A DNA stretch of 64,000 bases from Candidatus Peregrinibacteria bacterium. GTDB taxonomy: Bacteria; Patescibacteriota; Gracilibacteria; UBA1369; LOWO2-01-FULL-3. This document shows, piece by piece, positions 39,797 to 57,371 of this stretch. The notes beneath the pieces are model-generated. The model saw only the letters and a program-made list of their open reading frames with translations, ran no database searches and was not told the DNA's origin. The stretch lies in the NCBI GenBank assembly GCA_030688025.1, contig JAUYJL010000009.1, positions 1,503-65,502 on the forward strand, written 5' to 3'. Position numbers and translations under genes: made by a program. Position 1 is the first letter of the stretch; each line of letters opens with the position of its first letter.

Positions 39797-39846
39797 GAAA
39801 TATCCTTTTATTAAACTCATTATTTAAAATCCTTAACTAAAATGTT

Positions 39847-40362: not shown

Positions 40363-40383
40363 AAAACAATAAAAGGATACATC

Positions 40384-44101: not shown

Positions 44102-44119
44102 ACCGCTTTTTCTTCCATC

Positions 44120-44245
44120 GCCTAACAATGAATAACTGGTTCACTCCTTCACTCCGTTCAGTCGTTCTCCCAAATTTGGCGGCGGTATGTCGCTCCGCTC
44201 CAAATTTTACCGCCACCACACTTCAGTTATTCATGGACGTTAGCT
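44120..44245 (+). other. attC 6 (R'' GCCTAAC ... R' GTTAGCT)
   Basis: L'' ATGAATAACTGG pairs with L' CAGTTATTCAT, and inner TTTGGCGGCGGT pairs with ACCGCCACCACA (imperfect). The R'-side spacer is GGAC. Confidence 0.85.
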
Positions 44246-44474
44246 GAAATATTCCTTTTCTTTTCTGGGCTATCGCCCAATTGTTTTAAAAAATTTTCAA
44301 ATTTCTTTTTCTTTTTTATAAGGGGAAATATGGAGTTTTCTCCGCTCTGCTACGAAAACACTTGTTTTGTAGAGGGGAATAGCGGTGTTTCCTCCGCTTC
44401 GCTCCAGAAACTCTTTATATATTAAGGGAAAAATACTATACTACCATTAACCCGCCTTTGAACATAAAAACCCT

Positions 44475-46535
44475 ATGGAAATTAATTTCAAAAGTAAATT
44501 ATTTGAACTACTAAAAAGAGACCATCGTCTTTGGAATGAAGAGACCAAGGAATTCAATGAAACTCTTTTAAAAGATTTAGTGGATAAGCTGGATGAAAAT
44601 ATCCTCGAGCTACTTTTTAATAACGCGGAAACAAAAGAACGATTTTTCATAAAAATAAAGGATGTTTATGTATTAAAGCAAAACGAGTTAAAATTTTTCA
44701 TTGATGAAAATAAATTAGACAATTCATTTACCCAGCTTGCCAATAAAATTGGCCTCACCATAGATGACAAAAAAGACGAAAGGGTTGTTTTGAACTGGCC
44801 ATTTAAGGATTGTGTATTAGAGGGCGGCATGACAAAAGAAGACGCTGTTGATGTTTATTATAAATTTGATAAAAAGACCGGCGAATGGAAAGAGGAGGCC
44901 GCAAAGAGAAAAGAAATTTTCTTTAATGAAGTTTTAGCTCGCGATGAAATAGACCGGCTTGAAGATCCAAAAACTCTTTATAAGTGGCGAAGATTTACTG
45001 CTGAAAATTCTGAAAATGGAGAAGAGTTAAAAGAAATAAAGAGAGACGAAAAAGGGATTATAAAGGAAAATTTTGTAATCAAAGGCAATAATCTACTTTC
45101 ATTACATAGCTTAAAATCTCAATTTGAAGGGAAAATAAAACTTATCTACATAGATCCCCCATTTAACACTGGTAAGGATGAATTCAAGTATAATGACAAC
45201 TTTAATCATTCTGCATGGCTAACTTTCATGAAAAACAGGCTAGCGGTAGCAAAAGAATTATTAAGAGATGACGGCGTAATTTTTGTACACATTGGCAATG
45301 AGGAAGCGGCATATATGCAAGTTTTATTAGATGAAATTTTTAACAGGGAAAATTATTTGAATCATATTACAATGAGTACTAATGCGGCATCTGGATTTAA
45401 AGCTACCAGTGCTAAAATATTTTCAACAGCAAACCATATTTTTGTTTATGCCAAAAAAGCAGATAAGGGGTATTTGAATAAGTTATATACAAGAAAAGAA
45501 TATGATGATAGTTACGGATATTATTTACTAAATCCAAGCGAACCATATTCAAGATGGAAGTACAAAAAAATTATTGAAATACTCGCCGAAGAAAATGGAT
45601 TTAAAGATGTGAAATCTTTTCAGAAAAGTTTCGCCAAAGAAATTATACTGGAAAAAATAAAAAAATTTGCACATCTAAATAAGGAAAGAGTATTCCGGAC
45701 TGCAGCATTAGGCGGAGGCGCACTTACGAAAAGAAAAGTCACTGTAGAAAAATCCAAAAAAGAAAAAGGGGTTGTTCTCCAACATCCAAATGAAGACGTG
45801 AAAGGTTTTTATATTTTAAATGGAGAACAGATCGTTTTTTGGTCAAATACCTATAAAGAAATTGATGGAGATATTGTGCCAGCAACATCCCTCACAGATG
45901 TATGGACTGACATCGGTTTTACTGGAATCGCAAATGAGGGTGGTATAACCTTAAAAAATGGCAAAAAACCTGAACCTCTCCTTAAAAGGATAATTGAATT
46001 AGGATCAAGCGAAAATGATATAGTACTTGATTTCTTCGCTGGCAGTGGAACCACTTGCGCGGTGGCCCATAAAATGGGACGACAGTGGATTGCCATCGAA
46101 CAACTTGATTATTCTGATAATAACCCTGAGGAAAGAATGAAAGGGGTCATTGCTGGCGATCCTACTGGAATTTCCAAAACAATAAATTGGAAGGGTGGAG
46201 GTGACTTTATTTACACGCAACTGGCAAAATGGAATGAAGAGGCAAAAGAAAAAATTTCTGAAGCAAAATCTTATGATGAGTTAGTGAAGCTATTTTCATT
46301 GCTCTATGAAAAATATTTCCTAAATTATAATGTGCGAGCAAAAGATTTTAAAGAAAGCATAATAGAAAACAATGAATTCAAAAAACTTTCACTCGAAAGA
46401 CAAAAGGAAATATTTGGAAAAATGCTCGATCTAAACCAGATGTACATAAATTTCAGTGAAAGGAATGATAAAAAATATGAGCTAACATCAAGAGATATAG
46501 AACTCAGTGAAAAATTTTATAATGTGAAAAATTAA
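44475..46535 (+). CDS. mod: Cassette 7: Type III restriction-modification methyltransferase (Mod)
   Basis: LIYIDPPFNTGKDEF (motif IV, DPPF) precedes DFFAGSGTTCAVAHKMGRQWIAIE (motif I), a beta-class order typical of Type III Mod. The res gene follows immediately. Confidence 0.88.
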   Translation: MEINFKSKLFELLKRDHRLWNEETKEFNETLLKDLVDKLDENILELLFNNAETKERFFIKIKDVYVLKQNELKFFIDENKLDNSFTQLANKIGLTIDDKKDERVVLNWPFKDCVLEGGMTKEDAVDVYYKFDKKTGEWKEEAAKRKEIFFNEVLARDEIDRLEDPKTLYKWRRFTAENSENGEELKEIKRDEKGIIKENFVIKGNNLLSLHSLKSQFEGKIKLIYIDPPFNTGKDEFKYNDNFNHSAWLTFMKNRLAVAKELLRDDGVIFVHIGNEEAAYMQVLLDEIFNRENYLNHITMSTNAASGFKATSAKIFSTANHIFVYAKKADKGYLNKLYTRKEYDDSYGYYLLNPSEPYSRWKYKKIIEILAEENGFKDVKSFQKSFAKEIILEKIKKFAHLNKERVFRTAALGGGALTKRKVTVEKSKKEKGVVLQHPNEDVKGFYILNGEQIVFWSNTYKEIDGDIVPATSLTDVWTDIGFTGIANEGGITLKNGKKPEPLLKRIIELGSSENDIVLDFFAGSGTTCAVAHKMGRQWIAIEQLDYSDNNPEERMKGVIAGDPTGISKTINWKGGGDFIYTQLAKWNEEAKEKISEAKSYDELVKLFSLLYEKYFLNYNVRAKDFKESIIENNEFKKLSLERQKEIFGKMLDLNQMYINFSERNDKKYELTSRDIELSEKFYNVKN

Positions 46536-46537
46536 GT

Positions 46538-49321
46538 ATGAATGAGCAAAATTTACAACAGCTCATTGAATCAGAAATAGGTCGAAAGACCATTTCGAAA
46601 ATAGATTTGCCTGAATACATCACTACTAATTTAAGGCACGATTTTTGGTATTGGCAAAAAGAAGCATTGCAATATTTTTTTGCATTTGATGATCCTGTAT
46701 ACGAATTTGAGAAAATAGTGAATGAGCCAACTCACTTGATGTTTAACATGGCGACCGGCACAGGCAAAACCATGCTCATGGGAGCACTGATTTTATATTA
46801 CTACACAAAGGGTTATAAACACTTCATTTTCTTTGTAAACCAAAATAACATTGTAGATAAAACGGAAAATAATTTTATCAATAAAAGCCACACTAAATAT
46901 ATTTTCAGGCAGAGGACAGTAATAGATGACAAGACAATCAATATCCGCAAAGTTGAAACTTTTGACGAAACTGATGACATTCAAATTAAATTTGTTTCAA
47001 TTCATAAGCTTCACAACGATGTCTATTTAGCAAAAGAAAATTCCTTAACACTTCAGGAATTACAGACAAGAGATTTAGTCATGATCGGAGACGAAGCACA
47101 TCATTTTAACGCTTCCACAATAAAGAATGGCCAAACAGAAATTGAATTACCAACAGAACTAAAAGAGAATGCCAGTGATAAAGATATTGAGAAAAGCTGG
47201 GAAGATACGGTTTTAAATAAGATTTTGAGAAAAGGAAAAAGTAAACAAGATGTCGAGAATAAAAATGTTTTACTGGAATTTACTGCAACCATTCCTAAAA
47301 ATACAGATGTTATTGAAAAATACCACACAAAGATTATATATAAATTTGAACTCGTTGATTTTTTAAAGGCGGGATATACAAAGGAAATAAACTTAGTATC
47401 CACATCACTGAAAAAGAAAGAGAAAATTTTATTATCCTTGCTTTTTAATTGGTACCGTCATCAGATTGCACTAAAAAATAACATACCAAATTTTAAGCCA
47501 GTCATTCTTTTCAGAAGTAAACTTATTGAAGAATCAGAAAAAGATTATCAGGAATTTTGTTCAATTATTTCAAAACTAAATCCCTCAGATTTTGATTTCT
47601 TAAAAACTGTTGAGGATAGTATAAAACAAGATCAGGACAGTCTATTTAAAGTTTATGAACAAGGAAAAAGTCGCGTAAAGCAGCTTTTGCAGTTTATTAA
47701 GGACGAAAAAATCAACATTCGCCAGATACTGGATTACTTACAATCAGAATTTTCTGAAAAAAATTGCATTATTACGAACTCAAAAGATAACAATGCAACT
47801 ACTAAAGAAAAAACCTCAGAAGAGCAGGAGCAACTACTAAACAGCTTAGAAGATAAAAATAATCATACCCGTGCAATTTTTACGGTAAAACGACTTACTG
47901 AGGGCTGGGATGTATTAAATCTCTTTGATATAGTTAGACTCTATGAAGGAAGAGATGAGGGGCATAAAAACGGTAAAAGAATTGCCGGTCAAGCAACGAC
48001 TCAAGAAATACAACTAATCGGGCGTGGAGTCCGTTATTTCCCCTTTTCTTACAATGAGCATGAAAAAAACAAAAGAAAATTTGACAATGATTTAGAAAAT
48101 CCCCTCAGAGTTTTGGAAGAGTTTTATTATCACAGTGGAGGCGGTGATTTAGAAAAAGAACGCAGATATATTGATGAATTAAAACGAGAACTTAAAAATA
48201 AAGGATATATTCAAGAGAATAGATCACCAAAGAAATTTAGTTTGAAAGAAGAGTTTAAACAAACAGCTTTTTTTAGAGAGATAAAAGTGTGGAAGAATGA
48301 AAGAATAGAGAATCCGGAAAGGCGCCGACATACACTAACGGAATTGCAAAAGAATTTTATTTTTGAGTACAAAACAAAAGATTTGTCGTTAAGTGAGCAA
48401 CGTGTTGTTTTCGATAATGAGGTCGACGAAATGCTTGCTGAAAGTAAAAGTACAGAGAGAAAAACCTTAAACGTAAAAATTTCAGAGTTTGAAAAACATA
48501 TTGTATGGAAAGCTATAAACAGAAAAGCAAAAAAAGATTTATCGATTTTGCGCTTTGATAATTTGAAAGATGAATTGGATATTAAAAGTATTGATGAAAT
48601 TTTCTCCGATAATCTTCTTGGGGAATTTAAGGTAAATATTATTGTTTCAAAAACTAAAAATGGGTTCTCCGAAATAGATAACAAGGAAAAATTAGAAATA
48701 CTACTTTCCTTTTTTGATGAATTTACCAAGAAGCTAAAAGAAATTGCTAATCCATTCAAAGGAACAATGGATTTTATGCCGTTTTCATTTGGTCAACTTT
48801 TTGGCGAGGAAAAAAAGAAAAATGTGCTTATCGACGAAGAGAGTAAGGCTCTTGAGGTAGAGTTACTCCAACACAAATGGTATGTTTTAGACGGGTTTAA
48901 TGGAACAAGTGAGGAAAGAGATTTAATTGAATTTTTCAAAAACAAATTTGGCAATCTTGAAGAAAAATATGACGAAATTTATCTGCTCAGAAACGAGGAG
49001 GTATATAAACTCTATGATTTTGAACAGGGACGTGGATTTGAGCCAGATTTTTTACTTTTCCTGAAAGGTAAGGAAGGAAATTTATATTTCCAAGTATTTA
49101 TTGAGCCAAAAGGTAGTCAATTTACAGATAAAGAAGGTGGTTTCAAGGAAAGCAAAGAAGGATGGAAGGAAGAATTTTTACAACAAATTACAGATAAATA
49201 TGGCACTGGCAACTTATTAAAAGTAGAAAGTAAAAACTACAAATTGATCGGATTACCTTTATTCAACAAGCAAGAAGAACATTCCTTTGATACAGAATTT
49301 AGTAATCTGCTATTAAAATAG
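46538..49321 (+). CDS. res: Cassette 7: Type III restriction enzyme Res subunit (SF2 helicase-nuclease)
   Basis: Walker A is MATGTGKT and the DEAH box is MIGDEAHHF. Helicase motif VI-like QLIGRGVR is present, as is a C-terminal nuclease-like EPDFLLF...IEPKG (PD-ExK). Confidence 0.88.
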   Translation: MNEQNLQQLIESEIGRKTISKIDLPEYITTNLRHDFWYWQKEALQYFFAFDDPVYEFEKIVNEPTHLMFNMATGTGKTMLMGALILYYYTKGYKHFIFFVNQNNIVDKTENNFINKSHTKYIFRQRTVIDDKTINIRKVETFDETDDIQIKFVSIHKLHNDVYLAKENSLTLQELQTRDLVMIGDEAHHFNASTIKNGQTEIELPTELKENASDKDIEKSWEDTVLNKILRKGKSKQDVENKNVLLEFTATIPKNTDVIEKYHTKIIYKFELVDFLKAGYTKEINLVSTSLKKKEKILLSLLFNWYRHQIALKNNIPNFKPVILFRSKLIEESEKDYQEFCSIISKLNPSDFDFLKTVEDSIKQDQDSLFKVYEQGKSRVKQLLQFIKDEKINIRQILDYLQSEFSEKNCIITNSKDNNATTKEKTSEEQEQLLNSLEDKNNHTRAIFTVKRLTEGWDVLNLFDIVRLYEGRDEGHKNGKRIAGQATTQEIQLIGRGVRYFPFSYNEHEKNKRKFDNDLENPLRVLEEFYYHSGGGDLEKERRYIDELKRELKNKGYIQENRSPKKFSLKEEFKQTAFFREIKVWKNERIENPERRRHTLTELQKNFIFEYKTKDLSLSEQRVVFDNEVDEMLAESKSTERKTLNVKISEFEKHIVWKAINRKAKKDLSILRFDNLKDELDIKSIDEIFSDNLLGEFKVNIIVSKTKNGFSEIDNKEKLEILLSFFDEFTKKLKEIANPFKGTMDFMPFSFGQLFGEEKKKNVLIDEESKALEVELLQHKWYVLDGFNGTSEERDLIEFFKNKFGNLEEKYDEIYLLRNEEVYKLYDFEQGRGFEPDFLLFLKGKEGNLYFQVFIEPKGSQFTDKEGGFKESKEGWKEEFLQQITDKYGTGNLLKVESKNYKLIGLPLFNKQEEHSFDTEFSNLLLK

Positions 49322-49324
49322 GAA

Positions 49325-49379
49325 GTTTTCGGTCGGGGCAATTCACCCCTTTAGTTCCCCTCTTGCCCCTCCCTCAAAC
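49325..49379. repeat. Conserved-loop hairpin H1 (degenerate copy)
   Basis: GTTTTCGGTCGGGGCAA - TTCACCCCTTTAGTTCCCCTC - TTGCCCCTCCCTCAAAC, with 13/17 stem pairs. Confidence 0.6.
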
Positions 49380-49390
49380 AAGAAATAGGT

Positions 49391-49445
49391 GTTTTGGGTG
49401 GCGGGCATTCACCCCTTTAATTCCCCTCTGCCCACCACCCAAAAC
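49391..49445. repeat. Conserved-loop hairpin H2
   Basis: GTTTTGGGTGGCGGGCA - TTCACCCCTTTAATTCCCCTC - TGCCCACCACCCAAAAC, with 16/17 stem pairs. Confidence 0.75.
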
Positions 49446-49509
49446 GGAAAAAGAAATTTGAAAATTTTTAAAACAACCGACTATCGACGGAAAAGAAAAG
49501 GAATACATC

Positions 49510-49636
49510 AGCTAACACTGCGTATGCGGTTACGGCTTGCTCCGTACCTCCGCAAGCCTCCACCCATATTTGCCAGTGGTAAGCACTTCGTGCAATTATA
49601 CCACTGGCAAACATCGCATACGCAGGGACGTTATGT
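49510..49636 (+). other. attC 7 (R'' AGCTAAC ... R' GTTATGT)
   Basis: L'' TGCGTATGCG pairs with L' CGCATACGCA, and inner TTTGCCAGTGGT pairs perfectly with ACCACTGGCAAA. The R'-side spacer is GGGAC. Confidence 0.88.
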
Positions 49637-49666
49637 GAAATAGACTTTACTACCTAAGTGCAAAAT

Positions 49667-50437
49667 ATGACAAACGATCAAACTAAAAAATTCTACGATG
49701 AACTATCGGCTGATTATCATTTGATTTTCGGTAATTGGGATAATGCAATAAAAAGACAATCAAAAATTTTAGATAACATTATCCAAAAATATTCAAAAAA
49801 CGAATCAAAAACGTTATTGGATTGTTCTTGCGGGATAGGAACACAAGCCATTGGATTAGCGAATCTTGGATATAAAGTTCATGCAACAGATTTAAGTCCA
49901 AAAGCAATTGTGAGAGCCAGATTAGAAGCAAACAAAAGGGGTGTTTCAATATCTTTCGATGTTGCCGATTTCAAGAAATTAGAAGATCAAGTTGAAGGAA
50001 CTTTTGATATTGTCATTTCTTGTGATAATTCATTACCACATTTATTAACAGACGAAGAATTGCTTTTGGCTGCAAAAAATATTCTTTCTAAAATGAAATC
50101 CAATAGCTTGTTTATCGCAAGCATCAGAGATTATGACCAACTTTTGGAAGACAAACCAATTAGCACTCAACCAAACGTAAAAGATTTTACAAAGGAAAGA
50201 ACAATTTCTTTTCAAGTGTGGGATTGGGATGAAAATAATGTTTATACTGTTAATCATTTTACTCTGAAAGGAATTAATGAAAAATTTGATACGTTTTTGA
50301 GAACAACTAAATATAGAGCATATAAACGCGATGAAATGTCTAAAATTTTTAAAGAAGCAGGATTTATCGAAATCAAATGGTTAATGCCGAATGAATCAGA
50401 ATACTATCAGCCGATAATAATTGCGTTGAAACCGTAA
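49667..50437 (+). CDS. Cassette 8: class I SAM-dependent methyltransferase (small-molecule type)
   Basis: LLDCSCGIGTQAIGLANLGYKVHATDLS (motif I and the post-I acidic residue). The start is set at ATG 49667 (MTNDQ) rather than GTG 49658. Confidence 0.8.
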   Translation: MTNDQTKKFYDELSADYHLIFGNWDNAIKRQSKILDNIIQKYSKNESKTLLDCSCGIGTQAIGLANLGYKVHATDLSPKAIVRARLEANKRGVSISFDVADFKKLEDQVEGTFDIVISCDNSLPHLLTDEELLLAAKNILSKMKSNSLFIASIRDYDQLLEDKPISTQPNVKDFTKERTISFQVWDWDENNVYTVNHFTLKGINEKFDTFLRTTKYRAYKRDEMSKIFKEAGFIEIKWLMPNESEYYQPIIIALKP

Positions 50438-50449
50438 AGTCTACATCAC

Positions 50450-50591
50450 ATAACACGGTATATGGGGTTCAGAAAATTTCACTCAAAAGATTTAAAAGGA
50501 ATGTGAAATTTTCTTCTCCCAAATTTGCCTCACACTATTGATAAAAATTAAGGAGTTCGGCAAACTTCCCATATACCGAAACGTTGTGCGA
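50450..50591 (+). other. attC 8 (R'' ACATAAC ... R' GTTGTGC)
   Basis: L'' CGGTATATGGG pairs with L' CCCATATACCG. An inner hairpin is GAAAATTTCAC...GTGAAATTTTC. The R'-side spacer is AAAC. Length is 142 bp. Confidence 0.85.
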
Positions 50592-50761
50592 AATATTTTT
50601 CAATATTTTTTCTTTAATAAGGAATTTTTGTTGAAGAATTTAAAAAAGGATGGAATTTTTATTTTAATGAGGGGGATATAATGTATTTTTTGCTCCGTTC
50701 CTCCGCAAAAAATGGATTTAATATTTAATGGAAAATCAGTATAATACCACTGTAAAACACT

Positions 50762-51598
50762 ATGGCTAAAAAAACTCAATCAAAAAGATTAACGAATCAG
50801 CATAAAAAATCTCAAGGTGTAGTCGGTATATTCTGTAACGAAGCAAAGTTACATGATAAAACGGTTTGTAAAATTTCATACCTTGTAATTGAACAACTTA
50901 AAAAGGAACTTCCTCAGTTATCTTTTAGATATAGAACGTGTATAAAAAAGGAAGAAATAAACAAAGCGTTAAAGAAAATTGATCCAGAATTGGGGCAAAC
51001 CCTTTTTGTGCCAAATTCAAGTATTATTCCAGATGGTGGTATAATTGAAGTAAAAGATGATAGTGGTAATTGGAGAGTAGTACTTGTAACAGAAGCTAAA
51101 CATCAAGGAAAAGACATTGAAAATATACAAATAGGAAATCTAGTTGGTAAAAATAACAATCAAGACTTAATGGCTGCTGGCAATGCCATAGAAAGATCGC
51201 ATAAAAACATATCAGAAATTGCCAACTTTATGCTATATGAATCCCATTTCCCCTATATCTTATTCCTGGAAGGATCAAATTTTCTTACTAAAACTATTTC
51301 AATTAAAAGACCTGACGGAAGAGTGGTTACTCTTAATTATAACTCAGGCATGTTAAATAGATTGGATAGATTAACTTGTGCAAATTATGGAATGCCAATT
51401 AACACTAATTTATGTAAAAATAAATTTGTTAAACATAAAGATAAAACGATTATGCTTCAAGCAGCTTCAATTTTTACACAAGGAAATGGAGGAAAGTGGG
51501 ATGTAAAAGAAATGTTTGATATTATGATTGAAATTTCAAAAACCTCTCTTCAAGTATTAGGAAGTGAAATATTTAAACAAATAACCAAGCGAAAATAA
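50762..51598 (+). CDS. Cassette 9: EcoRI-family Type II restriction endonuclease
   Basis: Near-colinear similarity, from memory, to R.EcoRI. This includes PQLSFRYR, IIPDGGIIEVKDD, WRVVLVTEAKHQGKDI (catalytic D...E-A-K), QDLMAAGNAIERSHKNISEIANFM, FLEGSNFLT, YGMPIN and IMLQAASI. Length is 278 aa versus 277 aa for EcoRI. Confidence 0.88.
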   Translation: MAKKTQSKRLTNQHKKSQGVVGIFCNEAKLHDKTVCKISYLVIEQLKKELPQLSFRYRTCIKKEEINKALKKIDPELGQTLFVPNSSIIPDGGIIEVKDDSGNWRVVLVTEAKHQGKDIENIQIGNLVGKNNNQDLMAAGNAIERSHKNISEIANFMLYESHFPYILFLEGSNFLTKTISIKRPDGRVVTLNYNSGMLNRLDRLTCANYGMPINTNLCKNKFVKHKDKTIMLQAASIFTQGNGGKWDVKEMFDIMIEISKTSLQVLGSEIFKQITKRK

Positions 51599-51627
51599 GA
51601 GATTTATTCATTTAACATAATCTGATA

Positions 51628-52683
51628 ATGGCAAGAAATGCAACAAACAAATTATTGCAAAAAGCTAAGGAATCAAAGAGTGATGAGTTTTACACTCAAC
51701 TTTCAGATATAGAAAGTGAATTGCAACACTACAAAGGTCATTTTAAGGACAAAGTGGTTTTTTGTAATTGCGATGACCCTAAAATTAGCAACTTCTTTAA
51801 CTATTTTGCTTCAAACTTCAAAGAGTTGGGATTAAAAAAAATAATAGCTTCTTGTCATAGAAAACAAGAAAGAAATTTATTTAATACTAAAGAATTTGAA
51901 AGTGGTTATTTTTATGAATATTCAGGTGCTCCGGGAGAAAAAATAAACCCAAGTTCAAATGACATGATTCATTTTAAAGGAGATGGCGATTTTCGCAGCA
52001 CTGAAAGCATTGAACTATTAAAACAATCCGATATTATTGTTACTAATCCACCATTTTCGTTATTCAGGGATTTCGTAGGTCAATTGGTAAAATATGATAA
52101 AAAATTTTTGATAATAGGCAACGTTAATGCTATTACCTATAAAGAAATTTTTAAATTAATTAAGAAAAACAAGGCGTGGCTAGGAATAAATCTAGGTAGA
52201 GGTATTTCAGGTTTTATTGTACCAGAACATTACGAGCTTTACGGAACGGAAGCTCGTATCGATAGTCTTGGAAATAGAATAATCTCCCCAAATAACTGTT
52301 TATGGCTAACTAATTTAGACACATCCAAAAGGCACGAAGACATTATTCTTACAAAGAGATATTTTGGAAACGAAATTGATTATCCCCGTTACGATAACTA
52401 TGATGGAATTAATATAGATAAAACAAAAGATATTCCTTTAGATTATGCAGGCGTTATGGGAGTACCAATAACCTTTTTACATAAATACAATTCAGAGCAG
52501 TTTGAAATCATTAAATTTAGAAAAGGAAATGATGAGAAAGATTTGTCAGTAAACGGGAAATGTCCTTATTTTAGAATCTTAATCAGAAATAAACGCATAC
52601 AGAAGACTGGCAGTTGTCATGCAAGAATTGCAACAGATCAATGTCAGGAATATAAAATGATACCAATACAAACTTTATTATGA
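51628..52683 (+). CDS. Cassette 9: EcoRI-family N6-adenine DNA methyltransferase
   Basis: MARNATNKLL..SKSDEFYTQ, CNCDDP, GDGDFRS, IIVTNPPFSLF (motif IV NPPF), YDKKFLIIGNVN, GFIVPEHYELYGTEARID, NNCLWLTNLD, GVMGVPITFLHK and CPYFRILI all follow M.EcoRI as I remember it. There is an extra ~25-aa tail. Confidence 0.88.
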   Translation: MARNATNKLLQKAKESKSDEFYTQLSDIESELQHYKGHFKDKVVFCNCDDPKISNFFNYFASNFKELGLKKIIASCHRKQERNLFNTKEFESGYFYEYSGAPGEKINPSSNDMIHFKGDGDFRSTESIELLKQSDIIVTNPPFSLFRDFVGQLVKYDKKFLIIGNVNAITYKEIFKLIKKNKAWLGINLGRGISGFIVPEHYELYGTEARIDSLGNRIISPNNCLWLTNLDTSKRHEDIILTKRYFGNEIDYPRYDNYDGINIDKTKDIPLDYAGVMGVPITFLHKYNSEQFEIIKFRKGNDEKDLSVNGKCPYFRILIRNKRIQKTGSCHARIATDQCQEYKMIPIQTLL

Positions 52684-54176
52684 TAAAGACAATAACCATC
52701 CAAAATTTTAGAGGTATAAGGGAACTAAAAGATTTTGAACTCAAAAATCTTTCATTGCTTGTTGGTGAAAATGGAACAAGTAAAACCTCTATTTTAGAAG
52801 CGATAAATTTTTGTCTTTCTCCTTATTTTATATCTGGAAGAATTAAACATACAGATTTTTACAAAGGTGAAGATATTGAGATAAAAATTATTTTGGAATT
52901 TGATGAAAATTTCAAAGTCTTTTTGCCTGATGGCTATACCAAACAAGAGGTTGAGTGCAATAAGGTTTGTTTAGAAATAAAAAAAAGAGATAGGGCGACT
53001 CCCAAAAAGGCATTTTCGGACATTGTTGTTGTTTCTCATTATGTTTTACCAAGCAAAGAAAAAGATAATGAAAATGGTTGGGAGATAACACGAGGAACGG
53101 GATCAAAATTTAAATTTGATGAAAGACGGTTGTCTTTTCCTTTGGAGTCAGAAGGGCTACCAAAAAGTTTTTATTTTCCAAAAAACCGAGAAAAACAATT
53201 GCAGAGAGGCTTTAATTCTTCTATTTCTTCAGTTTTTGATGACTTTAATTGGAGATTCAATAAAGAAGTAAGAAAAATTGAAACAGAAGAAAATTTTAGT
53301 GGAGAAAAATTTACATCTCAAAAAAATAATTTTGAATCAAGTATTTTAGAAAAAATTGATGAACAATCACAACAAAAGACATTCCAGACACTAAACGAAA
53401 AACTGGAAAAAGTAGGTTTACCAAAAGCTGATCTTTCACTAATTGATTGCAATGCGCCTTTTGACAATGCTTTTCTTTCTCAAAAATTAGAATGTTTAGA
53501 CTTGCCTATATCTCAACTTGGGTCAGGTGTTGAAATGGTTGTTTCTTTATTGTTTTTAGAAACAATGGCAGAAATTTCAAAAGAAAATATCTTGATTTTA
53601 ATTGATGAACCAGAGCTACACCTACACCCAGATTTACAAAATAATTTTATTGATCACATAGTATCAATTTCTGAAAAAAATCAATTTCTATTTTCTACTC
53701 ACTCCCCACTTTTCGTTAAACAAACATTAAATAATGAAAATGGAAAAATTCAAATTCATTGTTTGGAAAAAGAAAATGGAGAAGTAAAAATTTTAGAATT
53801 AGAAAAAAGAGTTTTGCCGTATGTTTCAGCTAACGAAGTAAATTTTATTGCTTTTGGGTTAGCAACAGAAGAATATCACAATGAACTTTATAATGAGATT
53901 GAAATAAATTTTTGGAATGATCCAGATAATGATTTTAAAACATTGAAACAAAACGGAAGTTATGACAATAATGACTGTCGTCAAATTATTTTTGATAACG
54001 AATTTTTCTCAAAATTTAAACAAGAACAAATAGATAGTCCTTTTAGGACTACTCAAAATAAAGTAACAATCCACACCTACATTAGAAATAGAATTCATCA
54101 CTCTAAAGAAAATGGAGAAAGTCCAACAACACAAGAATTAAAACAATCCATAGAGAAAATGCGAGGATTTCTTTAA
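52680..54176 (+). CDS. Cassette 9: ABC/OLD-like (AAA_15/21-type) ATPase with a non-TOPRIM C-terminal domain
   Basis: Walker A GENGTSKTS, Walker B ILILIDEPELHLHP and H-loop FSTHSP. The ~115-aa C-terminus has no DxD/TOPRIM motif but contains RNRIHH (an Rx4H pattern). The start codon overlaps the methyltransferase stop (ATGA). Confidence 0.75.
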   Translation: MIKTITIQNFRGIRELKDFELKNLSLLVGENGTSKTSILEAINFCLSPYFISGRIKHTDFYKGEDIEIKIILEFDENFKVFLPDGYTKQEVECNKVCLEIKKRDRATPKKAFSDIVVVSHYVLPSKEKDNENGWEITRGTGSKFKFDERRLSFPLESEGLPKSFYFPKNREKQLQRGFNSSISSVFDDFNWRFNKEVRKIETEENFSGEKFTSQKNNFESSILEKIDEQSQQKTFQTLNEKLEKVGLPKADLSLIDCNAPFDNAFLSQKLECLDLPISQLGSGVEMVVSLLFLETMAEISKENILILIDEPELHLHPDLQNNFIDHIVSISEKNQFLFSTHSPLFVKQTLNNENGKIQIHCLEKENGEVKILELEKRVLPYVSANEVNFIAFGLATEEYHNELYNEIEINFWNDPDNDFKTLKQNGSYDNNDCRQIIFDNEFFSKFKQEQIDSPFRTTQNKVTIHTYIRNRIHHSKENGESPTTQELKQSIEKMRGFL

Positions 54177-54182
54177 TAAGGT

Positions 54183-54231
54183 GTTTTTCTTTTTCCAATT
54201 CACCCCTAACCCCTCTTGGAAAAAGAAAAAC
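54183..54231. repeat. Conserved-loop hairpin H3
   Basis: GTTTTTCTTTTTCCAA - TTCACCCCTAACCCCTC - TTGGAAAAAGAAAAAC, a perfect 16-bp stem. Confidence 0.75.
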
Positions 54232-54308
54232 GAAAAATAAAAATTCCAAATAGAAATAAAATTCTTCAACAAAAGAATAAGGAATGAAAAAATATTGAAA
54301 AATACATC

Positions 54309-54435
54309 GCACAACAACTCATATCTGGCTCAAGAAATTGACACATTAATATTTCAAAGGAAAGTCAATTTCTTTCGACCCAAATTTTTGCTTCACTACG
54401 TTTTGCAAAAACTTCAGATATGAGTAACGTTAGCC
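54309..54435 (+). other. attC 9 (R'' GCACAAC ... R' GTTAGCC)
   Basis: L'' CTCATATCTGG pairs with L' CAGATATGAG. An inner hairpin is GAAATTGAC...GTCAATTTC. The R'-side spacer is TAAC. Confidence 0.85.
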
Positions 54436-54662
54436 GAAATACATTTTTACTATTCCCTTTTTGTCGCTCCGCTTTTCGGACTTTTAATAAGGAGGGGCGA
54501 ATTGATTCTTTATTTTTAGAGGGGGGGGCTGTCTGCCTTTGGCAGCCAGTAAGGTATTTTCTTGCTCCCTTCGGTCGCTACGAAAAATTTAGAATTATTT
54601 TAGAAATATTTAATAATTGCATGATATAATCACTACGAAATTTTAAATAAATCAGAATAAAT

Positions 54663-56255
54663 ATGAACACAACAGAACAAAACGAATTATTAAGTATTCA
54701 AGAAGCAAGCACATGGGCTAGCTCATTTTTGAAGCGCGTCGTTACAGAAAGCAACATTTCATATCTAATTCAGTATGGCAGAGTTAGAAAAATTGGAGAA
54801 AATGGCACAACTCAAATAATAAAAGCAGATTTACTTAGATATTACGAAAAAAGTCGCCCTAGTCGTGAAATATCATGGAAAAAAACGCTTGGAGATGACT
54901 TAAACTGGTCTTTATCTTTTGAACAATATAGAGAATCTGAAACCACAAAGCATGTTCATCGGTTACATCCATACAAAGGAAAATACATTCCTCAACTTGT
55001 TGAGTATTTTTTAGACGATCACACGGATAATTTTAAGAAACAAACTTATTTTAAAAAGGGTGACATCATTCTTGATCCATTTTGTGGAAGTGGAACAACG
55101 CTTGTGCAAGCAAATGAATTGGGTATGCACTCAATCGGGATAGATATTTCCGCCTTCAATTCCTTAATTTCAAACATTAAAATTGGAAAACATGACTTTG
55201 AAGAACTCACCCTGGTAATTAAGCAAATTACTAACAACTTGGAAAAAATTTTAAAGGACGCACACGCAATAGATTTTGAATCAGAACTATTAAAAGAGCT
55301 AAATCAATTCAATTCAAAAAATTTCCCCTCTCCGGAATTTAAGTACAAAATACGCCAAGGACAGGTTGATGAAAGAAAATTTGGAAGCGAAAAAGAAAAA
55401 GAATTTCTGAAAATTTACGATACATTGGTCAAAAAGTATGGAATTAAATTAAAACAACAAAAAAATGAAACATTCTTAGATAAATGGTATCTACAAGCAA
55501 TCAGAGATGAAATAAATTTCATGTTTGAGCAAATTAAGCAAATCAAAAATCCAGACATCAAAAAAGTAATAAGTGTTATTTTAAGCCGTACTATCAGATC
55601 TTGCCGTGCAACAACCCATTCAGATTTAGCAACGCTCAAGGAGCCACAAATAACAACTTATTATTGCAAAAAGCACGGGAAAATGTGCAAACCTCTTTTT
55701 TCAATTTTGAGCTGGTGGAAGCGATATGCTCAAGACACAATGTATAGGTTTAAACAATTCGAAAAATTACGAACTGATACAAAACAAATTTGCTTAACAG
55801 GTGATTCAAGAGAAATAGATATTTTTGGAGAACTAGATAACCGTTATCCCGATTTTGCTAAAATCGTAAAAACTCAAAAGATTAAAGGTATTTTTTCTTC
55901 ACCTCCTTATGTTGGATTGATTGATTATCACGAACAACATGCCTACGCCTATGATCTCTTCGGATTTAAGCGCAAAGACGAATCTGAAATAGGCCCGCTT
56001 TTTCGAGGACAAGGATTAGAAGCAAGAAAAAGCTATATTGAAGGGATTTCATCTGTACTGCTAAATTGCAAAAAATTTCTAGCAGATGATTTCTCCATAT
56101 TTTTAGTAGCCAATGATAAATGGGGTATGTATCCTGAAATTGCTAAAAAAGCAGGACTAAAAATTGTTGAAGAATTTAAAAGACCCGTTTTAAACCGTAC
56201 CGAAAAAGACAAAGGAGCGTATTCAGAGATAATTTTTCACTTAAAAAATAATTAA
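54663..56255 (+). CDS. Cassette 10: DNA methyltransferase (N4-C/N6-A amino-methyltransferase, SPPY motif, alpha-like order)
   Basis: ILDPFCGSGTTLVQANELGMHSIGIDIS (motif I) lies about 270 aa before IFSSPPYVGLIDY (motif IV). The N-terminal segment LSIQEASTWAS... looks like a small HTH. Confidence 0.82.
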   Translation: MNTTEQNELLSIQEASTWASSFLKRVVTESNISYLIQYGRVRKIGENGTTQIIKADLLRYYEKSRPSREISWKKTLGDDLNWSLSFEQYRESETTKHVHRLHPYKGKYIPQLVEYFLDDHTDNFKKQTYFKKGDIILDPFCGSGTTLVQANELGMHSIGIDISAFNSLISNIKIGKHDFEELTLVIKQITNNLEKILKDAHAIDFESELLKELNQFNSKNFPSPEFKYKIRQGQVDERKFGSEKEKEFLKIYDTLVKKYGIKLKQQKNETFLDKWYLQAIRDEINFMFEQIKQIKNPDIKKVISVILSRTIRSCRATTHSDLATLKEPQITTYYCKKHGKMCKPLFSILSWWKRYAQDTMYRFKQFEKLRTDTKQICLTGDSREIDIFGELDNRYPDFAKIVKTQKIKGIFSSPPYVGLIDYHEQHAYAYDLFGFKRKDESEIGPLFRGQGLEARKSYIEGISSVLLNCKKFLADDFSIFLVANDKWGMYPEIAKKAGLKIVEEFKRPVLNRTEKDKGAYSEIIFHLKNN

Positions 56256-56256
56256 T

Positions 56257-57054
56257 ATGGCACTATCAAAAGATTTACAACAGAAGGTTTATGAATTTCT
56301 AAAGGGGAAAATCCTTAAAAAAATTGATGAATACAACTTGAGCGATGAAGACTCATCAAAACCTTTTCAATATGCTCTTTTTACAAAAAAGGGTTACTTG
56401 GCTAAAGGATTTATTCATGGATGTGAAACAGCACTTGGAAATTGGCACGAAACCATAGCGAAAATTATTGCCACTGAAAATTTTGCAACTGCAAATAAAT
56501 TACAAGGACAAAACAAATTAAAAGGTAAAATCACAAGAGAGGCACAAAGAACATCTGAAAATATTTTAAGTGATCTTGATAGCGTTAAGAGAGAACCAAA
56601 TCACAAGTCAGAGTCAGAAGAAATTTTTAATGCTAGCCAAAACCTCGAACAAACAGAGGACAGAATACAAACTGTTGATCTCTACCTAGAAACAAAAGAC
56701 GGTGAAGAAATTTATTTTGAAATAAAGGGACCTAAGCCAAATAAAAACGAAATGAGAGCAGCAAAAAGAGATTTGCTAGAAATATATGCAATGAGATCAG
56801 CGGAAGGCAAGAAAGTAAAAATTTATTTAGGCATGTACTACAACCCATATTATCCCGAAGAGTACCAAAGATGGACATGTATAAAATTCTTTGATAAAGG
56901 TAATGACTTTCTTATTGGCAAAGACTTTTGGGACTTTTTAGGCGGAAACGGAGCTTATGAGGAATTAATTGATATTTATGAAAAAGTCGGAGAAAAAATA
57001 AGACCAGTGCTAGATCAAAAGTTCAAGGACATTGCAAAAAATCAAGAAGAATAA
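56257..57054 (+). CDS. Cassette 10: PD-(D/E)xK Type II restriction endonuclease (family uncertain, possibly TdeIII-like)
   Basis: VDLYLETKDGEEIYFEIKGPKPN fits D-Xn-E-X-K. The gene starts 2 nt after the methyltransferase stop. The family name is only a recollection. Confidence 0.6.
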   Translation: MALSKDLQQKVYEFLKGKILKKIDEYNLSDEDSSKPFQYALFTKKGYLAKGFIHGCETALGNWHETIAKIIATENFATANKLQGQNKLKGKITREAQRTSENILSDLDSVKREPNHKSESEEIFNASQNLEQTEDRIQTVDLYLETKDGEEIYFEIKGPKPNKNEMRAAKRDLLEIYAMRSAEGKKVKIYLGMYYNPYYPEEYQRWTCIKFFDKGNDFLIGKDFWDFLGGNGAYEELIDIYEKVGEKIRPVLDQKFKDIAKNQEE

Positions 57055-57057
57055 AGT

Positions 57058-57106
57058 GTTTTGGCTCGGGCAATTCACCCCCGGCCCCTCTTGCCCTCGC
57101 CAAAAC
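57058..57106. repeat. Conserved-loop hairpin H4
   Basis: GTTTTGGCTCGGGCAA - TTCACCCCCGGCCCCTC - TTGCCCTCGCCAAAAC, with 14/16 stem pairs. Confidence 0.7.
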
Positions 57107-57238
57107 AGAATCAATTCGCCCCTTATAAATAAGTGAAAAGCGGTCGTGACATCGGGAATAGTAAAAATGTACTTCGTTCGGTCGCTACGCTCCCTCCGAC
57201 CACGCTGCGCTCTCGCTCCACTGCGTTACGCTCGGGTC

Positions 57239-57371
57239 GGCTAACACAGCATAACAGGTTCGGGGCTCGGCTCGCCCCTCACCCAAATTGCTTGTTCGCT
57301 TAGGCGGTGCACTCCGTGCTATTATACCGCCACGCTCACTTCGCAACTTCTGTTATGCTGGAACGTTAGCT
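57239..57371 (+). other. attC 10 (R'' GGCTAAC ... R' GTTAGCT)
   Basis: L'' CAGCATAACAGG pairs with L' TCTGTTATGCTG. The R'-side spacer is GAAC. It is closely related to attC 3. Confidence 0.85.

What the first reader, a model, noticed from the sequence alone, without database searches (positions are those of the whole stretch)
44240..57365. Defence-loaded array: three complete, mechanistically different R-M systems are each packaged as a single oversized cassette with its own promoter
Cassettes 7 (5.4 kb, Type III mod+res), 9 (3.8 kb, EcoRI-like R+M+ATPase) and 10 (2.9 kb, SPPY methyltransferase + PD-ExK nuclease) make up about 12 of the 17.6 kb array. Classical cassettes are typically promoterless and carry a single ORF. 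Here each large cassette has a 170-230 nt leader containing a good -10: TATACT at 44437-44442, TATAAT at 50740-50745, and TGaTATAAT at 54622-54630. The leaders also contain fragments resembling the variable part of attC sites (GCTCCG, GGTCGCTACG), suggesting they arose by fusion or decay of former cassettes. Mobilising whole toxin-like R-M modules by attC recombination would be a route for defence-gene shuffling in an organism with a very small genome.
Basis: partly seen in the sequence, partly recalled or inferred. Interest (0 to 1): 0.7.

Follow-up and report, generated by a model that had tools for sequence, protein, structure and literature searches.

The report
Restriction-modification cassettes in a CPR integron
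Three complete DNA restriction-modification defence systems each sit as one unusually large mobile gene cassette in an integron-like array of a small-genome (CPR) bacterium, and one of them, an EcoRI look-alike, recurs as the same cassette in arrays of other CPR bacteria, so whole defence operons are traded this way.

Summary
Window 39790-57371 is a ten-cassette array next to a divergent tyrosine recombinase in a Candidatus Peregrinibacteria contig. Cassettes 7, 9 and 10 (5391, 3846 and 2936 nt, 69% of the array) carry a full-size Type III mod+res pair, an EcoRI-type R+M pair (REase 74% identical to E. coli EcoRI) plus an AAA_15 ATPase, and an SPPY methyltransferase with a TdeIII-family nuclease.

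No attC lies inside them. Each begins with the exact reverse complement of its own R'' box, followed by cassette-specific inverted repeats. The EcoRI cassette, with the same leader and trailer, occurs in at least eight other contigs. Several of these have homologous recombinases and sit at different array positions. The third gene is the ATPase, an Abi_alpha gene, or absent.

The three -10 boxes exist. Hexamer matches are at chance density overall, but the EcoRI TATAAT is present in all six aligned copies. A fusion or decayed-attC origin for the leaders is not supported.

The unexpected part is the platform. The recombinase lacks the IntI-specific domain, yet its family is tied to attC arrays across CPR (77 sites upstream, 0 downstream, 80 loci). 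The attCs have no extrahelical bases. I call this a new variant of a known kind.

The parts
38825..39649 (-). Tyrosine recombinase (274 aa), divergent from the array. Xer/IntI-like but without the IntI-specific additional domain.
   Evidence: Pfam Phage_integrase plus SAM_4. NCBIfam XerA_Arch 213 bits, TIGR02249 188 bits in 2 stretches. Against VchIntIA 2a3v, 20 aa span a 63-aa segment. Homologs in 80 loci have attCs only upstream.
39717..39746 (+). Candidate array promoter (Pc-like), ATGACA-18-TATACT, between the recombinase gene and attI.
   Evidence: This is a consensus match only.
39772..39802 (+). attI-like site, resembling an L'-R' half attC. Crossover at G39790 of GTTAGCC.
   Evidence: Weak covariance-model hit. 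The R'' of cassette 1 is the exact complement of GTTAGCC.
44120..44245 (+). attC6, the upstream boundary of cassette 7 (R' GTTAGCT at 44239).
   Evidence: Covariance model 107.6 bits. Bottom-strand fold z = -3.1.
44240..44474 (+). Cassette 7 leader. It holds the outer inverted-repeat arm (44246-44317), a small GC hairpin followed by a T-rich stretch (44266-44279), two A/T-stem hairpins, and TTTATA-17-TATACT (44414-44442).
   Evidence: (I1, I4, I12).
44475..46535 (+). Type III methyltransferase (Mod, 686 aa, DPPF motif).
   Evidence: PADLOC MTase_III 3.6e-189 over residues 1-683. Pfam N6_N4_Mtase plus TypeIII_RM_meth.
46538..49321 (+). Type III restriction subunit (Res, 927 aa). Has GTGKT and DEAH helicase motifs and a C-terminal PD...EPK motif.
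   Evidence: PADLOC REase_III 3.7e-100 over residues 19-923. Pfam ResIII. Motifs read in the translation.
49325..49445 (+). Two trailer hairpins with conserved loop ATTCACCCC...CCCCTCT (49325-49379 and 49391-49445).
   Evidence: (D11).
49441..49509 (+). Cassette 7 outer inverted-repeat arm, complementary to 44246-44317.
   Evidence: score 70 against a non-self mean of 18.5 and maximum of 30.
49510..49636 (+). attC7. R'' AGCTAAC is the exact complement of the cassette 7 start.
   Evidence: Covariance model 118 bits. Fold z = -7.0..
50448..50589 (+). attC8, the upstream boundary of cassette 9 (R' GTTGTGC at 50583).
   Evidence: Covariance model 92 bits.
50584..50761 (+). Cassette 9 leader. It holds the outer repeat arm, a G-run, the hairpin TTTTTTGC-TCCGTTCCTCC-GCAAAAAA, and TTAATA-16-TATAAT (50718-50745).
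   Evidence: The whole leader is conserved in six aligned copies.
50762..51598 (+). EcoRI-family restriction endonuclease (278 aa).
   Evidence: Pfam EcoRI 1.4e-146. It is 74% identical to E. coli EcoRI over 274 aa, with PDGG, EAK, MAAGNAIERS and NRLDRLT segments conserved.
51628..52683 (+). EcoRI-family adenine methyltransferase (351 aa).
   Evidence: Pfam EcoRI_methylase 7.2e-130.
52680..54176 (+). AAA_15 (OLD/AriA/PtuA-like) ATPase of 498 aa. Its start overlaps the M stop, and its C-terminal ~150 aa has no family match.
   Evidence: It is 92% identical to the third gene of the L100 copy and absent from other copies.
54183..54231 (+). Trailer hairpin with a 14-bp stem and loop AATTCACCCCTAACCCCTCTT.
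   Evidence: The same element is in L086.
54236..54308 (+). Cassette 9 outer inverted-repeat arm, complementary to 50590-50665.
   Evidence: score 55. (I2, I11).
54309..54435 (+). attC9. R'' GCACAAC is the exact complement of the cassette 9 start. R' GTTAGCC at 54429 starts cassette 10.
   Evidence: Covariance model 73 bits..
54430..54662 (+). Cassette 10 leader. It holds the outer repeat arm (54436-54523), G-runs, a hairpin with loop GCTCCCTTCGGTCGCTAC, and TAGAAA-18-TATAAT with an upstream TG (54601-54630).
54663..56255 (+). Type II DNA methyltransferase (530 aa) with motif I DPFCGSGTT and motif IV SPPY.
   Evidence: PADLOC PDLC03249 5.2e-236. Pfam N6_N4_Mtase. Motifs read.
56257..57054 (+). 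TdeIII-family Type II restriction endonuclease (265 aa).
   Evidence: Pfam RE_TdeIII 7.8e-58 over positions 2-242 of 242.
57058..57238 (+). Cassette 10 trailer. It holds a conserved-loop hairpin (57058-57106), the outer repeat arm (to 57176), and a GC-rich module (57177-57238) just 5' of R''.
   Evidence: (score 72).
57239..57371 (+). attC10, the last attC of the array.
   Evidence: Covariance model 98 bits. Fold z = -5.4.

Best explanation
This is a sedentary, chromosomal, integron-like cassette array in a Candidatus Peregrinibacteria (CPR) genome. It lies between purP and purH and is served by a divergent 274-aa tyrosine recombinase.

Cassettes are bounded by structured attC-type sites: an R'' box, a 12-bp L stem, a branched variable tip, and an R' box. 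By analogy with integrons, they are excised and inserted by single-strand recombination at G|TT. This step is inferred, not shown.

Three cassettes are complete R-M operons: Type III mod-res; EcoRI-type R-M plus an ATPase; and an SPPY methyltransferase with a TdeIII-type nuclease. Each is embedded in a common cassette 'chassis'. The chassis is a 180-235-nt leader (outer inverted-repeat arm, G-run, small hairpins, a sigma-70-like -35/-10 16-32 nt before the first ATG) and a trailer (conserved-loop hairpin or hairpins, the other repeat arm, then the attC).

The internal promoter would keep methylase and nuclease expressed wherever the cassette sits in the array. The R-M systems would provide phage and foreign-DNA restriction. 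As addiction modules, they would also penalise loss of the cassette. All three of these points are inferred.

The units move as wholes. The EcoRI cassette is shared among arrays of different CPR bacteria. It can gain a third defence gene between the M gene and the trailer.
For: Array and boundaries:
- There are 10 attCs, all on the + strand and none elsewhere in the 64 kb.
- There is no attC inside the big cassettes with filters off.
- In 10 of 10 cassettes the first 7 nt are the exact reverse complement of an R'' box 77-142 nt before the next crossover.
- Start-to-end complementarity beyond the boxes is cassette-specific. Self scores are 22-72 against a non-self mean of 18.5 and maximum of 30. 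The three R-M cassettes score 70, 55 and 72.

attC structure:
- Across 91 sites, 91.8% of cells are paired against 73.5% in shuffles.
- 15 of 19 pairs show compensatory changes.
- The covariation score is 0.468 against at most 0.058 when the partners are slid.

Platform:
- A relative with an 88%-identical recombinase has the same purP/purH flanks but entirely different cassettes.
- In 80 loci with homologous recombinases, 77 attC hits lie upstream on the opposite strand and 0 lie downstream. 30 of 35 loci with more than 1.5 kb of upstream sequence have at least one.

R-M identity.

Mobility:
- The EcoRI cassette, with near-identical leader and trailer, lies between attCs in a Pacebacteria MAG next to a 56%-identical recombinase (L086).
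- It is also attC-flanked in L100, L093, L098, L092 and L103.
- L098 again has a 56%-identical recombinase. In L099 and L153 the EcoRI genes lie next to 43-44%-identical recombinase homologs, without an attC call.
- The leader also occurs in L097 and L099.
- The third gene is the ATPase in the window and L100 (92% identity), Abi_alpha in L093, and absent in L086 and L098.

Promoter: TATAAT is present in all six aligned leaders while the bases on either side vary.

Chassis versus genes: E. coli and Klebsiella EcoRI plasmids are homologous only from the REase ATG onward.
Against: - No recombination, transcription or methylation was observed. Everything rests on sequence.
- The recombinase lacks the domain considered necessary for attC recombination in IntI. 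A canonical IntI elsewhere in the genome cannot be excluded from a 64-kb window.
- Promoter-like hexamers occur at chance density.
- The nearest Type III relatives (75-79% Res identity) are not attC-flanked. No second copy of the TdeIII cassette was found. Mobility as a cassette is therefore shown for only one of the three systems.
- GAATTC is not depleted in the window: 26 observed against 28.3 expected. This is compatible with recent arrival or with no long-term activity.
- In other copies of the EcoRI cassette the R' box differs from the complement of R'' by 1-2 bases.
Confidence: 0.8

Rival explanations
1. The R-M operons entered pre-existing small or empty cassettes by their own mobility, through illegitimate or R-M-driven insertion. 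They are now passengers. The large units are not themselves mobilised by attC recombination.
For: The closest Type III systems sit in non-integron contexts with a small integrase and a HARE-HTH gene, with no attC. Enterobacterial EcoRI shares only the coding region with the cassette. The leader and trailer chassis motifs also occur in cassettes with unrelated genes.
Against: The EcoRI cassette travels with its leader, trailer and attC into different arrays and positions. At least this large unit therefore moves as a cassette. Insertion into a chassis explains the origin of the cassette, not an inability to move afterwards.
Confidence: 0.2
2. The array is not integron-like at all. The repeats are Xer/dif-type or REP-like intergenic elements, and the neighbouring recombinase is the housekeeping chromosome-dimer resolvase.
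For: The recombinase is collinear with XerA/XerC/XerD and lacks the IntI domain. The family is very widespread in CPR, with more than 7900 homologs.
Against: - attC hits are strictly upstream, on the opposite strand, and in tandem with ORFs (77 against 0).
- Cassette content differs at a conserved chromosomal site.
- The R'/R'' complement rule is exactly that of a canonical integron used as a control (5 of 5 cassettes).
- The sites are 77-142-nt covarying hairpins, not 28-bp dif sites.
- 35 of 80 recombinase genes lie within 600 nt of a contig end, as expected next to a population-variable or repeat-rich array.
Confidence: 0.08
3. The R-M cassettes are silent stock, or are expressed only by read-through from a Pc promoter as in classical arrays. 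The -10 boxes are chance matches in AT-rich DNA.
For: The scan finds 67 promoter-like sites against 64.9 +/- 8.4 in shuffles. Leaders are about 30% GC.
Against: All three matches lie on the coding strand and end 16-32 nt before the first ATG. The EcoRI TATAAT is present in six copies amid variable flanks. A silent or position-dependent methylase would make acquisition of an R-M cassette lethal or useless; this last point is an inference from known R-M biology.
Confidence: 0.2
4. The oversized cassettes arose by fusion of neighbouring cassettes after attC decay.
For: Leader hairpin loops match attC variable-tip sequences: 18 of 19 nt for cassette 9 against attC7. The EcoRI cassette exists with and without a third gene.
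Against: - No R/L boxes or covariance-model signal lie in the leaders or between genes.
- Gene junctions leave no room for a decayed attC. M and the ATPase overlap by 4 nt, and M and Abi_alpha in L093 are 8 nt apart.
- The whole leader is conserved as one unit in six aligned copies.
- The shared element is a loop sequence on different stems.
Confidence: 0.1

Closest known systems
Sedentary chromosomal integrons carrying anti-phage defence cassettes (Darracq et al., bioRxiv 10.1101/2024.07.02.601686; mobile-integron BRiCs, bioRxiv 10.1101/2024.07.02.601719)
   Same: A chromosomal array at a fixed site next to a divergent tyrosine recombinase, with ORF-plus-attC units in one orientation and variable content between relatives. 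Defence genes, including R-M, are carried in cassettes. The R'/R'' complement rule holds.
   Different: That survey reports that defence systems in integrons are streamlined, 'never exceed 2 components', and are mostly type II/IV R-M. Here a full-size Type III pair fills a 5.4-kb cassette and a three-gene cassette spans 3.8 kb. The integrase lacks the IntI domain. The attCs have no extrahelical bases and carry cassette-specific outer stems. The host is a CPR bacterium.
Integrons of Archaea (Ghaly et al., bioRxiv 10.1101/2022.02.06.479319)
   Same: Integron arrays found outside the classical Proteobacteria, from MAGs. Methylase and restriction cassettes are common (8.3% of annotated cassette proteins).
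   Different: Those IntIs were identified by, and possess, the IntI-specific additional domain. The recombinase here does not have it.
EcoRI R-M system of E. coli plasmids (PDB 1ERI/1CKQ)
   Same: The same gene order, R then M. The REase is 74% identical, with catalytic and recognition segments conserved. Nucleotide identity over the genes is about 71%.
   Different: The enterobacterial copies have no cassette leader, trailer or attC. Here the pair is followed by an ATPase and sits in an attC-bounded cassette.
Toxin-antitoxin cassettes with their own promoters that stabilise Vibrio superintegrons
   Same: Addictive two-gene modules inside single cassettes that must be expressed independently of Pc.
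   Different: Here the module is an R-M system of 3-5 kb. The stabilising effect is inferred, not tested.
pdif (Xer) modules of Acinetobacter plasmids
   Same: Discrete gene modules bounded by sites for a Xer-type recombinase lacking any IntI domain.
   Different: By my knowledge of the literature, pdif sites are about 28-bp duplex sites in alternating orientation and are not arrayed beside the recombinase gene. Here the sites are 77-142-nt covarying hairpins in direct orientation, directly upstream of the recombinase.

Membership tests
Integron (classical definition, as used by IntegronFinder) | intI encoding a tyrosine recombinase with the IntI-specific additional domain around patch III | tested here: not met
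   Against VchIntIA (2a3v), query residues 182-202 span chain residues 182-245, so about 43 aa are missing. TIGR02249 scores 188 bits against a cutoff of 265, in two stretches. The best model is XerA_Arch at 213 against 220. All listed homologs are 259-291 aa.
Integron (classical definition, as used by IntegronFinder) | Array of cassettes, each ORF(s) plus an attC (R''-L''...L'-R' imperfect palindrome), all in one orientation and adjacent to, and divergent from, the integrase gene | tested here: met
   Ten attCs on the + strand immediately upstream of the - strand recombinase. Covariation over 91 sites. The same arrangement is seen in 30 of 35 related loci.
Integron (classical definition, as used by IntegronFinder) | Crossover at G|TT, so that each cassette starts with the complement of its own R'' box | tested here: met
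   10 of 10 exact in the window and 26 of 44 exact in related arrays. A canonical control array gives 5 of 5. The cleavage position itself is inferred.
Integron (classical definition, as used by IntegronFinder) | attC bottom strand with extrahelical bases in the L stem, an unpaired central spacer and a variable terminal structure | tested here: not met
   A spacer is present but asymmetric (1 nt against 4 nt). A branched variable tip is present. The L stem is 12 contiguous pairs with no bulged bases.
Integron (classical definition, as used by IntegronFinder) | attI site and Pc promoter in the platform | tested here: inconclusive
   There is an L'-R'-like half site with GTTAGCC at 39790 (weak covariance-model hit) and an ATGACA-18-TATACT match at 39717-39746. 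Neither has functional evidence.
Integron (classical definition, as used by IntegronFinder) | Cassette content varies between close relatives at a conserved site | tested here: met
   L001/L002 have an 88%-identical recombinase and the same purP and purH flanks but different cassettes.
Type III restriction-modification | Mod with an N6-adenine methyltransferase domain and Type III Mod N-terminal region; Res with SF2 helicase motifs and a PD-(D/E)xK nuclease; mod-res operon | tested here: met
   PADLOC MTase_III 3.6e-189 and REase_III 3.7e-100, both near full length. Pfam TypeIII_RM_meth, N6_N4_Mtase and ResIII. DPPF, GTGKT, DEAH and PD..EPK motifs read. The two genes are 2 nt apart.
EcoRI-type Type IIP R-M (GAATTC) | REase of the EcoRI fold with catalytic D91/E111/K113 and the recognition segment; cognate EcoRI-family m6A methyltransferase | tested here: met
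   Matches 1CKQ at 6.5e-131 with 74% identity. The PDGG, EAK, MAAGNAIERS and NRLDRLT segments are conserved. Pfam EcoRI_methylase scores 7e-130.
EcoRI-type Type IIP R-M (GAATTC) | Actual GAATTC cleavage and methylation | not testable with these tools
   This needs a methylome or enzyme assay. GAATTC is not depleted in the window (26 against 28.3).
TdeIII-family Type II R-M | RE_TdeIII nuclease adjacent to a DNA methyltransferase | tested here: met
   PF09520 scores 7.8e-58 over the whole profile. The adjacent MTase matches PDLC03249 at 5e-236 and has DPFCGSGTT and SPPY motifs. The target sequence and base were not tested.
Xer/dif (pdif) modules | Modules bounded by about 28-bp duplex XerC/XerD sites | tested here: not met
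   The sites are 77-142-nt hairpins with 19 covarying pairs.

The most novel reading that the evidence does not exclude
CPR bacteria (Peregrini-, Gracili-, Sacchari-, Abscondita-, Pace-, Kaiserbacteria and others) may carry a distinct, minimal class of integron. Its integrase is a roughly 270-aa Xer-like enzyme without the IntI-specific domain. Its attC sites lack extrahelical bases. Instead they have an asymmetric spacer and long, cassette-specific outer stems that form only in the excised circle or when the two cassette ends pair. This architecture could allow 3-5-kb, self-expressed, multi-gene defence operons, including the EcoRI system, to be exchanged as cassettes. It would be either a proto-integron or a streamlined derivative. 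IntegronFinder-type surveys would probably not score it as a complete integron, because they require the IntI domain; I did not run such a tool.
Probability: 0.45. Interest if true: 0.85.

Novelty: new variant of a known kind. Interest (0 to 1): 0.64.

Why it matters
R-M genes in integron cassettes are already known, so the bare finding is an extension of existing knowledge. Three things go further.

1. Published surveys describe integron-borne defence as compact, with at most two components. Here a full-size Type III system and a three-gene module are single cassettes. One large R-M cassette demonstrably circulates among CPR bacteria with small genomes, so integron-type shuffling can move whole, self-expressed defence operons.

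2. The recombinase family tied to these arrays lacks the domain that defines integron integrases and is thought to read the extrahelical bases of attC. The attCs lack those bases too. This gives a natural experiment on what is minimally needed for single-strand cassette recombination, and on how integrons arose from Xer-like enzymes.

3. Cassette-specific outer inverted repeats, and a shared leader and trailer chassis distinct from the captured genes (the E. coli EcoRI genes lack it), give a concrete handle on the unsolved question of how cassettes are made.

Tried and rejected
- **Archaeal host** (suggested by two purP genes). Rejected: FtsW/RodA, MutS and an M23/LysM peptidase are present, and NCBI names the contig Candidatus Peregrinibacteria.
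- **Hidden or decayed attCs inside the big cassettes or leaders.** None found with default filters or with filters off.
- **Leaders as decayed attCs.** Only short loop matches were found, and only the cassette 9 match is significant.
- **'Longer cassettes have longer outer repeats'.** This holds for the top three in the window, but there is no correlation over 44 cassettes in related arrays (rho 0.16, p 0.3).
- **Type III cassette in another array.** The four nearest contexts have no attC. There is no TdeIII-family homolog in 171 fetched loci.
- **Exact 36-nt leader pattern in metagenome contigs.** Zero hits. It was replaced by a protein-seeded scan.
- **Restriction-site avoidance as a proxy for activity.** GAATTC is not depleted. 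GGNCC is mildly low (33 against 51), which is not decisive.
- **Promoter enrichment.** None. Terminator-like sites are also at chance, 11 against 10.6.
- **Rfam.** Only a tRNA reaches threshold.
- **Leader peptide reading of the G-run plus ATG in leaders.** Rejected, because the ATG is AAGG in five of the six EcoRI copies.
- **Literature.** No paper in the held library links integrons with CPR lineages. This is absence in that library only.

Full report
**What is there.** On the + strand between 39790 and 57371 lie ten units, each ending in a 77-142-nt repeat. Each repeat has an R'' box (xxxxAAC) at its 5' end and an R' box (GTTxxxx) at its 3' end. The G of each GTT is at 39790 (no repeat upstream, attI-like), 40494, 41546, 42220, 43276, 43777, 44239, 49630, 50583, 54429 and 57365. 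This gives units of 704, 1052, 674, 1056, 501, 462, 5391, 953, 3846 and 2936 nt.

A 274-aa tyrosine recombinase gene lies divergently at 38825-39649. The flanks are purine genes: two purP copies, and purH. FtsW, MutS and an M23/LysM peptidase make the host a bacterium. The identical proteins are on a 67.8-kb NCBI contig named Candidatus Peregrinibacteria.

**The repeats are attC-type sites.**
- Their bottom strands fold better than shuffles (z from -1.8 to -8.1).
- The ten sites share an R stem, an asymmetric spacer (1 nt on one side, 4 nt on the other), a 12-bp L stem and a branched tip. Nine of 19 pairs show compensatory changes.
- A covariance model built from them finds only these ten sites in the 64 kb.
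- Over 91 sites from the window and related loci, 91.8% of cells pair against 73.5% in shuffles. Fifteen of 19 pairs have double changes. The covariation score is 0.468 against at most 0.058 for slid partners.
- No bulged (extrahelical) bases occur in the L stem.

**The three large units are single cassettes.** With filters off, the model finds nothing inside 44200-57450 except the bounding sites; the best internal hit has E = 0.89. In all ten units the first 7 nt are the exact reverse complement of the unit's own R'' box. This is the signature expected if the crossover is at G|TT, and I reproduced it in a canonical Aliivibrio integron, where 5 of 5 cassettes obey it.

Beyond the boxes, the start of each unit is complementary to its own end and not to other units' ends. 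Self scores are 41, 49, 50, 25, 40, 22, 70, 27, 55 and 72, against a non-self mean of 18.5, sd 3.2 and maximum 30. In cassettes 7, 9 and 10 these outer arms run 70-90 nt. The same property holds in related arrays: 23 of 44 cassettes lie above the 99th percentile of non-self scores. In the canonical control, complementarity anchored at the boxes extends only 0-4 nt (n = 5).

**Gene content**.
- Cassette 7: Type III Mod (686 aa; PADLOC 3.6e-189; DPPF) and Res (927 aa; 3.7e-100; GTGKT, DEAH, C-terminal PD..EPK).
- Cassette 9: an EcoRI-family REase, an EcoRI-family methyltransferase and a 498-aa AAA_15 ATPase whose start overlaps the M stop. The REase is 74% identical to E. coli EcoRI over 274 residues, with catalytic and recognition segments conserved.
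- Cassette 10: a 530-aa methyltransferase (DPFCGSGTT, SPPY; PDLC03249 5e-236) and an RE_TdeIII nuclease (7.8e-58).

All proteins match their families over nearly full length. These are not the shortened forms described for integron-borne defence, where systems 'never exceed 2 components'.

**Mobility.** The EcoRI REase has 85-93%-identical relatives in many CPR lineages.
- In a Pacebacteria MAG (L086) it lies between attC hits as a 2.4-kb R+M cassette, downstream of a 56%-identical, divergent recombinase.
- Its leader and trailer are nearly identical to those of window cassette 9, including the small hairpin, the G-run, the TATAAT and the trailer hairpin.
- A protein-seeded metagenome scan gave further attC-flanked copies.
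- L100 has R+M+ATPase in about 3.8 kb. Its ATPase is 92% identical to the window's, and an MTase plus AAA_13 cassette lies upstream.
- L093 has R+M plus an Abi_alpha gene.
- L098 has R+M next to a 56%-identical recombinase. L092 and L103 are further copies.
- L099 and L153 have recombinase homologs directly upstream of the EcoRI genes.
- The leader is also present in L097 and L099.

So one of the three large R-M units is a cassette family that has entered different arrays at different positions and has gained or lost a third defence gene between M and the trailer. The gene junctions leave no room for a lost attC.

The nearest relatives of the Type III Res (75-79% identity) are in other contexts without attC. 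No second TdeIII cassette was found. For those two systems, unit status rests on the in-window anatomy.

**Promoters.** The scan finds 67 sites against 64.9 +/- 8.4 in shuffles, so hexamers alone prove nothing. Small cassettes also have matches, for example TTGACA-18-TAAAGT at 43819-43848. In six aligned copies of the EcoRI leader the TATAAT is present in every copy, while the adjacent bases vary and an indel of about 11 nt lies between it and the ATG. I regard internal promoters as likely (about 0.7) but unproven. A candidate Pc lies at 39717-39746.

**Origin of the leaders.** E. coli and Klebsiella EcoRI plasmids align with the cassette only from the REase ATG to near the end of M, at about 71% identity. 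The leader and trailer are therefore a cassette chassis, distinct from the captured genes.

The attC-like fragments in leaders are hairpins that share a loop with the attC variable tip but have different stems. In the cassette 9 leader the hairpin is TTTTTTGC-TCCGTTCCTCC-GCAAAAAA; in attC7 it is GGCTTGC-TCCGTACCTCC-GCAAGCC. This does not look like decay of a former attC.

**The platform.** The recombinase aligns end to end with archaeal XerA structures. It aligns in two pieces with VchIntIA, skipping the roughly 43-aa IntI-specific segment. It fails the integron-integrase model cutoff.

Even so, in 80 genome loci with 45-88%-identical homologs, all 77 attC hits lie upstream on the opposite strand and none lie downstream, despite twice as much downstream sequence. 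Thirty of 35 loci with enough upstream sequence have at least one attC. Thirty-five of 80 genes lie within 600 nt of a contig end. A relative with 88% identity has the same chromosomal flanks and different cassettes.

Functionally this is an integron. By the standard definition it is not one. I found no paper in the held library that describes integrons in CPR lineages.

**Verdict.** The main interpretation is right, and for the EcoRI cassette it is now backed by comparative evidence. The promoter claim is plausible. The fusion/decay idea is not supported. The most interesting aspect is the non-canonical platform and cassette anatomy, which needs experiments.

Noticed in passing
window 38825-39649 (-); loci L004-L083: The array-linked recombinase family (about 270 aa) lacks the IntI-specific domain. 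Even so, attC hits are 77 upstream and 0 downstream across 80 CPR loci, and 35 of 80 genes lie within 600 nt of a contig end.
   Followed up: yes
window: starts and ends of all ten cassettes, e.g. 44246-44317 / 49441-49509, 50590-50665 / 54236-54308, 54436-54523 / 57090-57176: Cassette-specific inverted repeats of 20-90 nt extend outward from the R boxes. They would lengthen the attC hairpin only in the excised circle or when the cassette ends pair. They are also seen in 23 of 44 cassettes of related arrays, but not in a five-cassette canonical control.
   Followed up: partly
window 49325-49379, 49391-49445, 54183-54231, 57058-57106; also L006, L014, L033, L039, L054, L057, L076, L077: Hairpins with variable stems and a conserved loop (ATTCRCCCC..CCCCTCT) lie between the last stop codon and the attC. 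In the window they occur only in the three R-M cassettes. In other arrays they also occur in cassettes of about 1 kb, always in the same orientation. Their function is unknown.
   Followed up: partly
window 42061-42113, 43630-43665, 57177-57238; L086 9109-9152: A 45-60-nt GC-rich module lies immediately 5' of R'' in some attCs. It is present or absent among copies of the same EcoRI cassette, so it behaves as an indel polymorphism.
   Followed up: partly
window 40434-40463 and 49570-49599: The conserved attC tip carries a -35/-10-like pair (TTGCCA-18-TATTAT or AATTAT) pointing into the next cassette. attCs themselves might therefore drive downstream expression.
   Followed up: no
window 52680-54176; L100 6880-8415; L093 3513-4178: The EcoRI cassette has a variable 'third-gene slot' between M and the trailer. 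It holds an AAA_15 ATPase, an Abi_alpha gene, or nothing. The C-terminal ~150 aa of the ATPase match no family.
   Followed up: partly
window 37991-38663 (+): An MntA-like nucleotidyltransferase and HepT-like RNase toxin-antitoxin pair sits between purP and the 3' end of the recombinase gene. It is absent from the syntenic relative L001.
   Followed up: partly
window 42268-43182 (+): Cassette 4 encodes an HNH nuclease with three homing-endonuclease-associated repeats. Homologs of 37-41% identity lie in the arrays of L004 and L028.
   Followed up: partly
L033 620-3786 (-); L100 924-4250 (+): Other CPR arrays also hold large two-gene defence-type cassettes. One is an N6_N4 methyltransferase with a 757-aa unknown protein (3.9 kb, outer-repeat score 65). 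Another is a methyltransferase with an AAA_13 (PDC-S06) ATPase.
   Followed up: partly
L086, L093, L098, L100 against window 50583-50589: Among copies of the EcoRI cassette the R' box varies (GTTGTGC, GTTGTAC, GTTATAC, GTTCTGC, ATTGCGC) while R'' stays GCACAAC. The A/G differences would be T.G wobbles on the bottom strand. The bases just after the box are invariant, which raises the question of where exactly strand exchange occurs.
   Followed up: no
window 35605-37854 (-): Two tandem archaeal-type purP (formate-dependent FAICAR synthetase) genes occur in a CPR bacterium alongside a bacterial purH.
   Followed up: no
window 83-7225 (+): A 2380-aa ORF lies at the left end of the window. It was not examined.
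   Followed up: no
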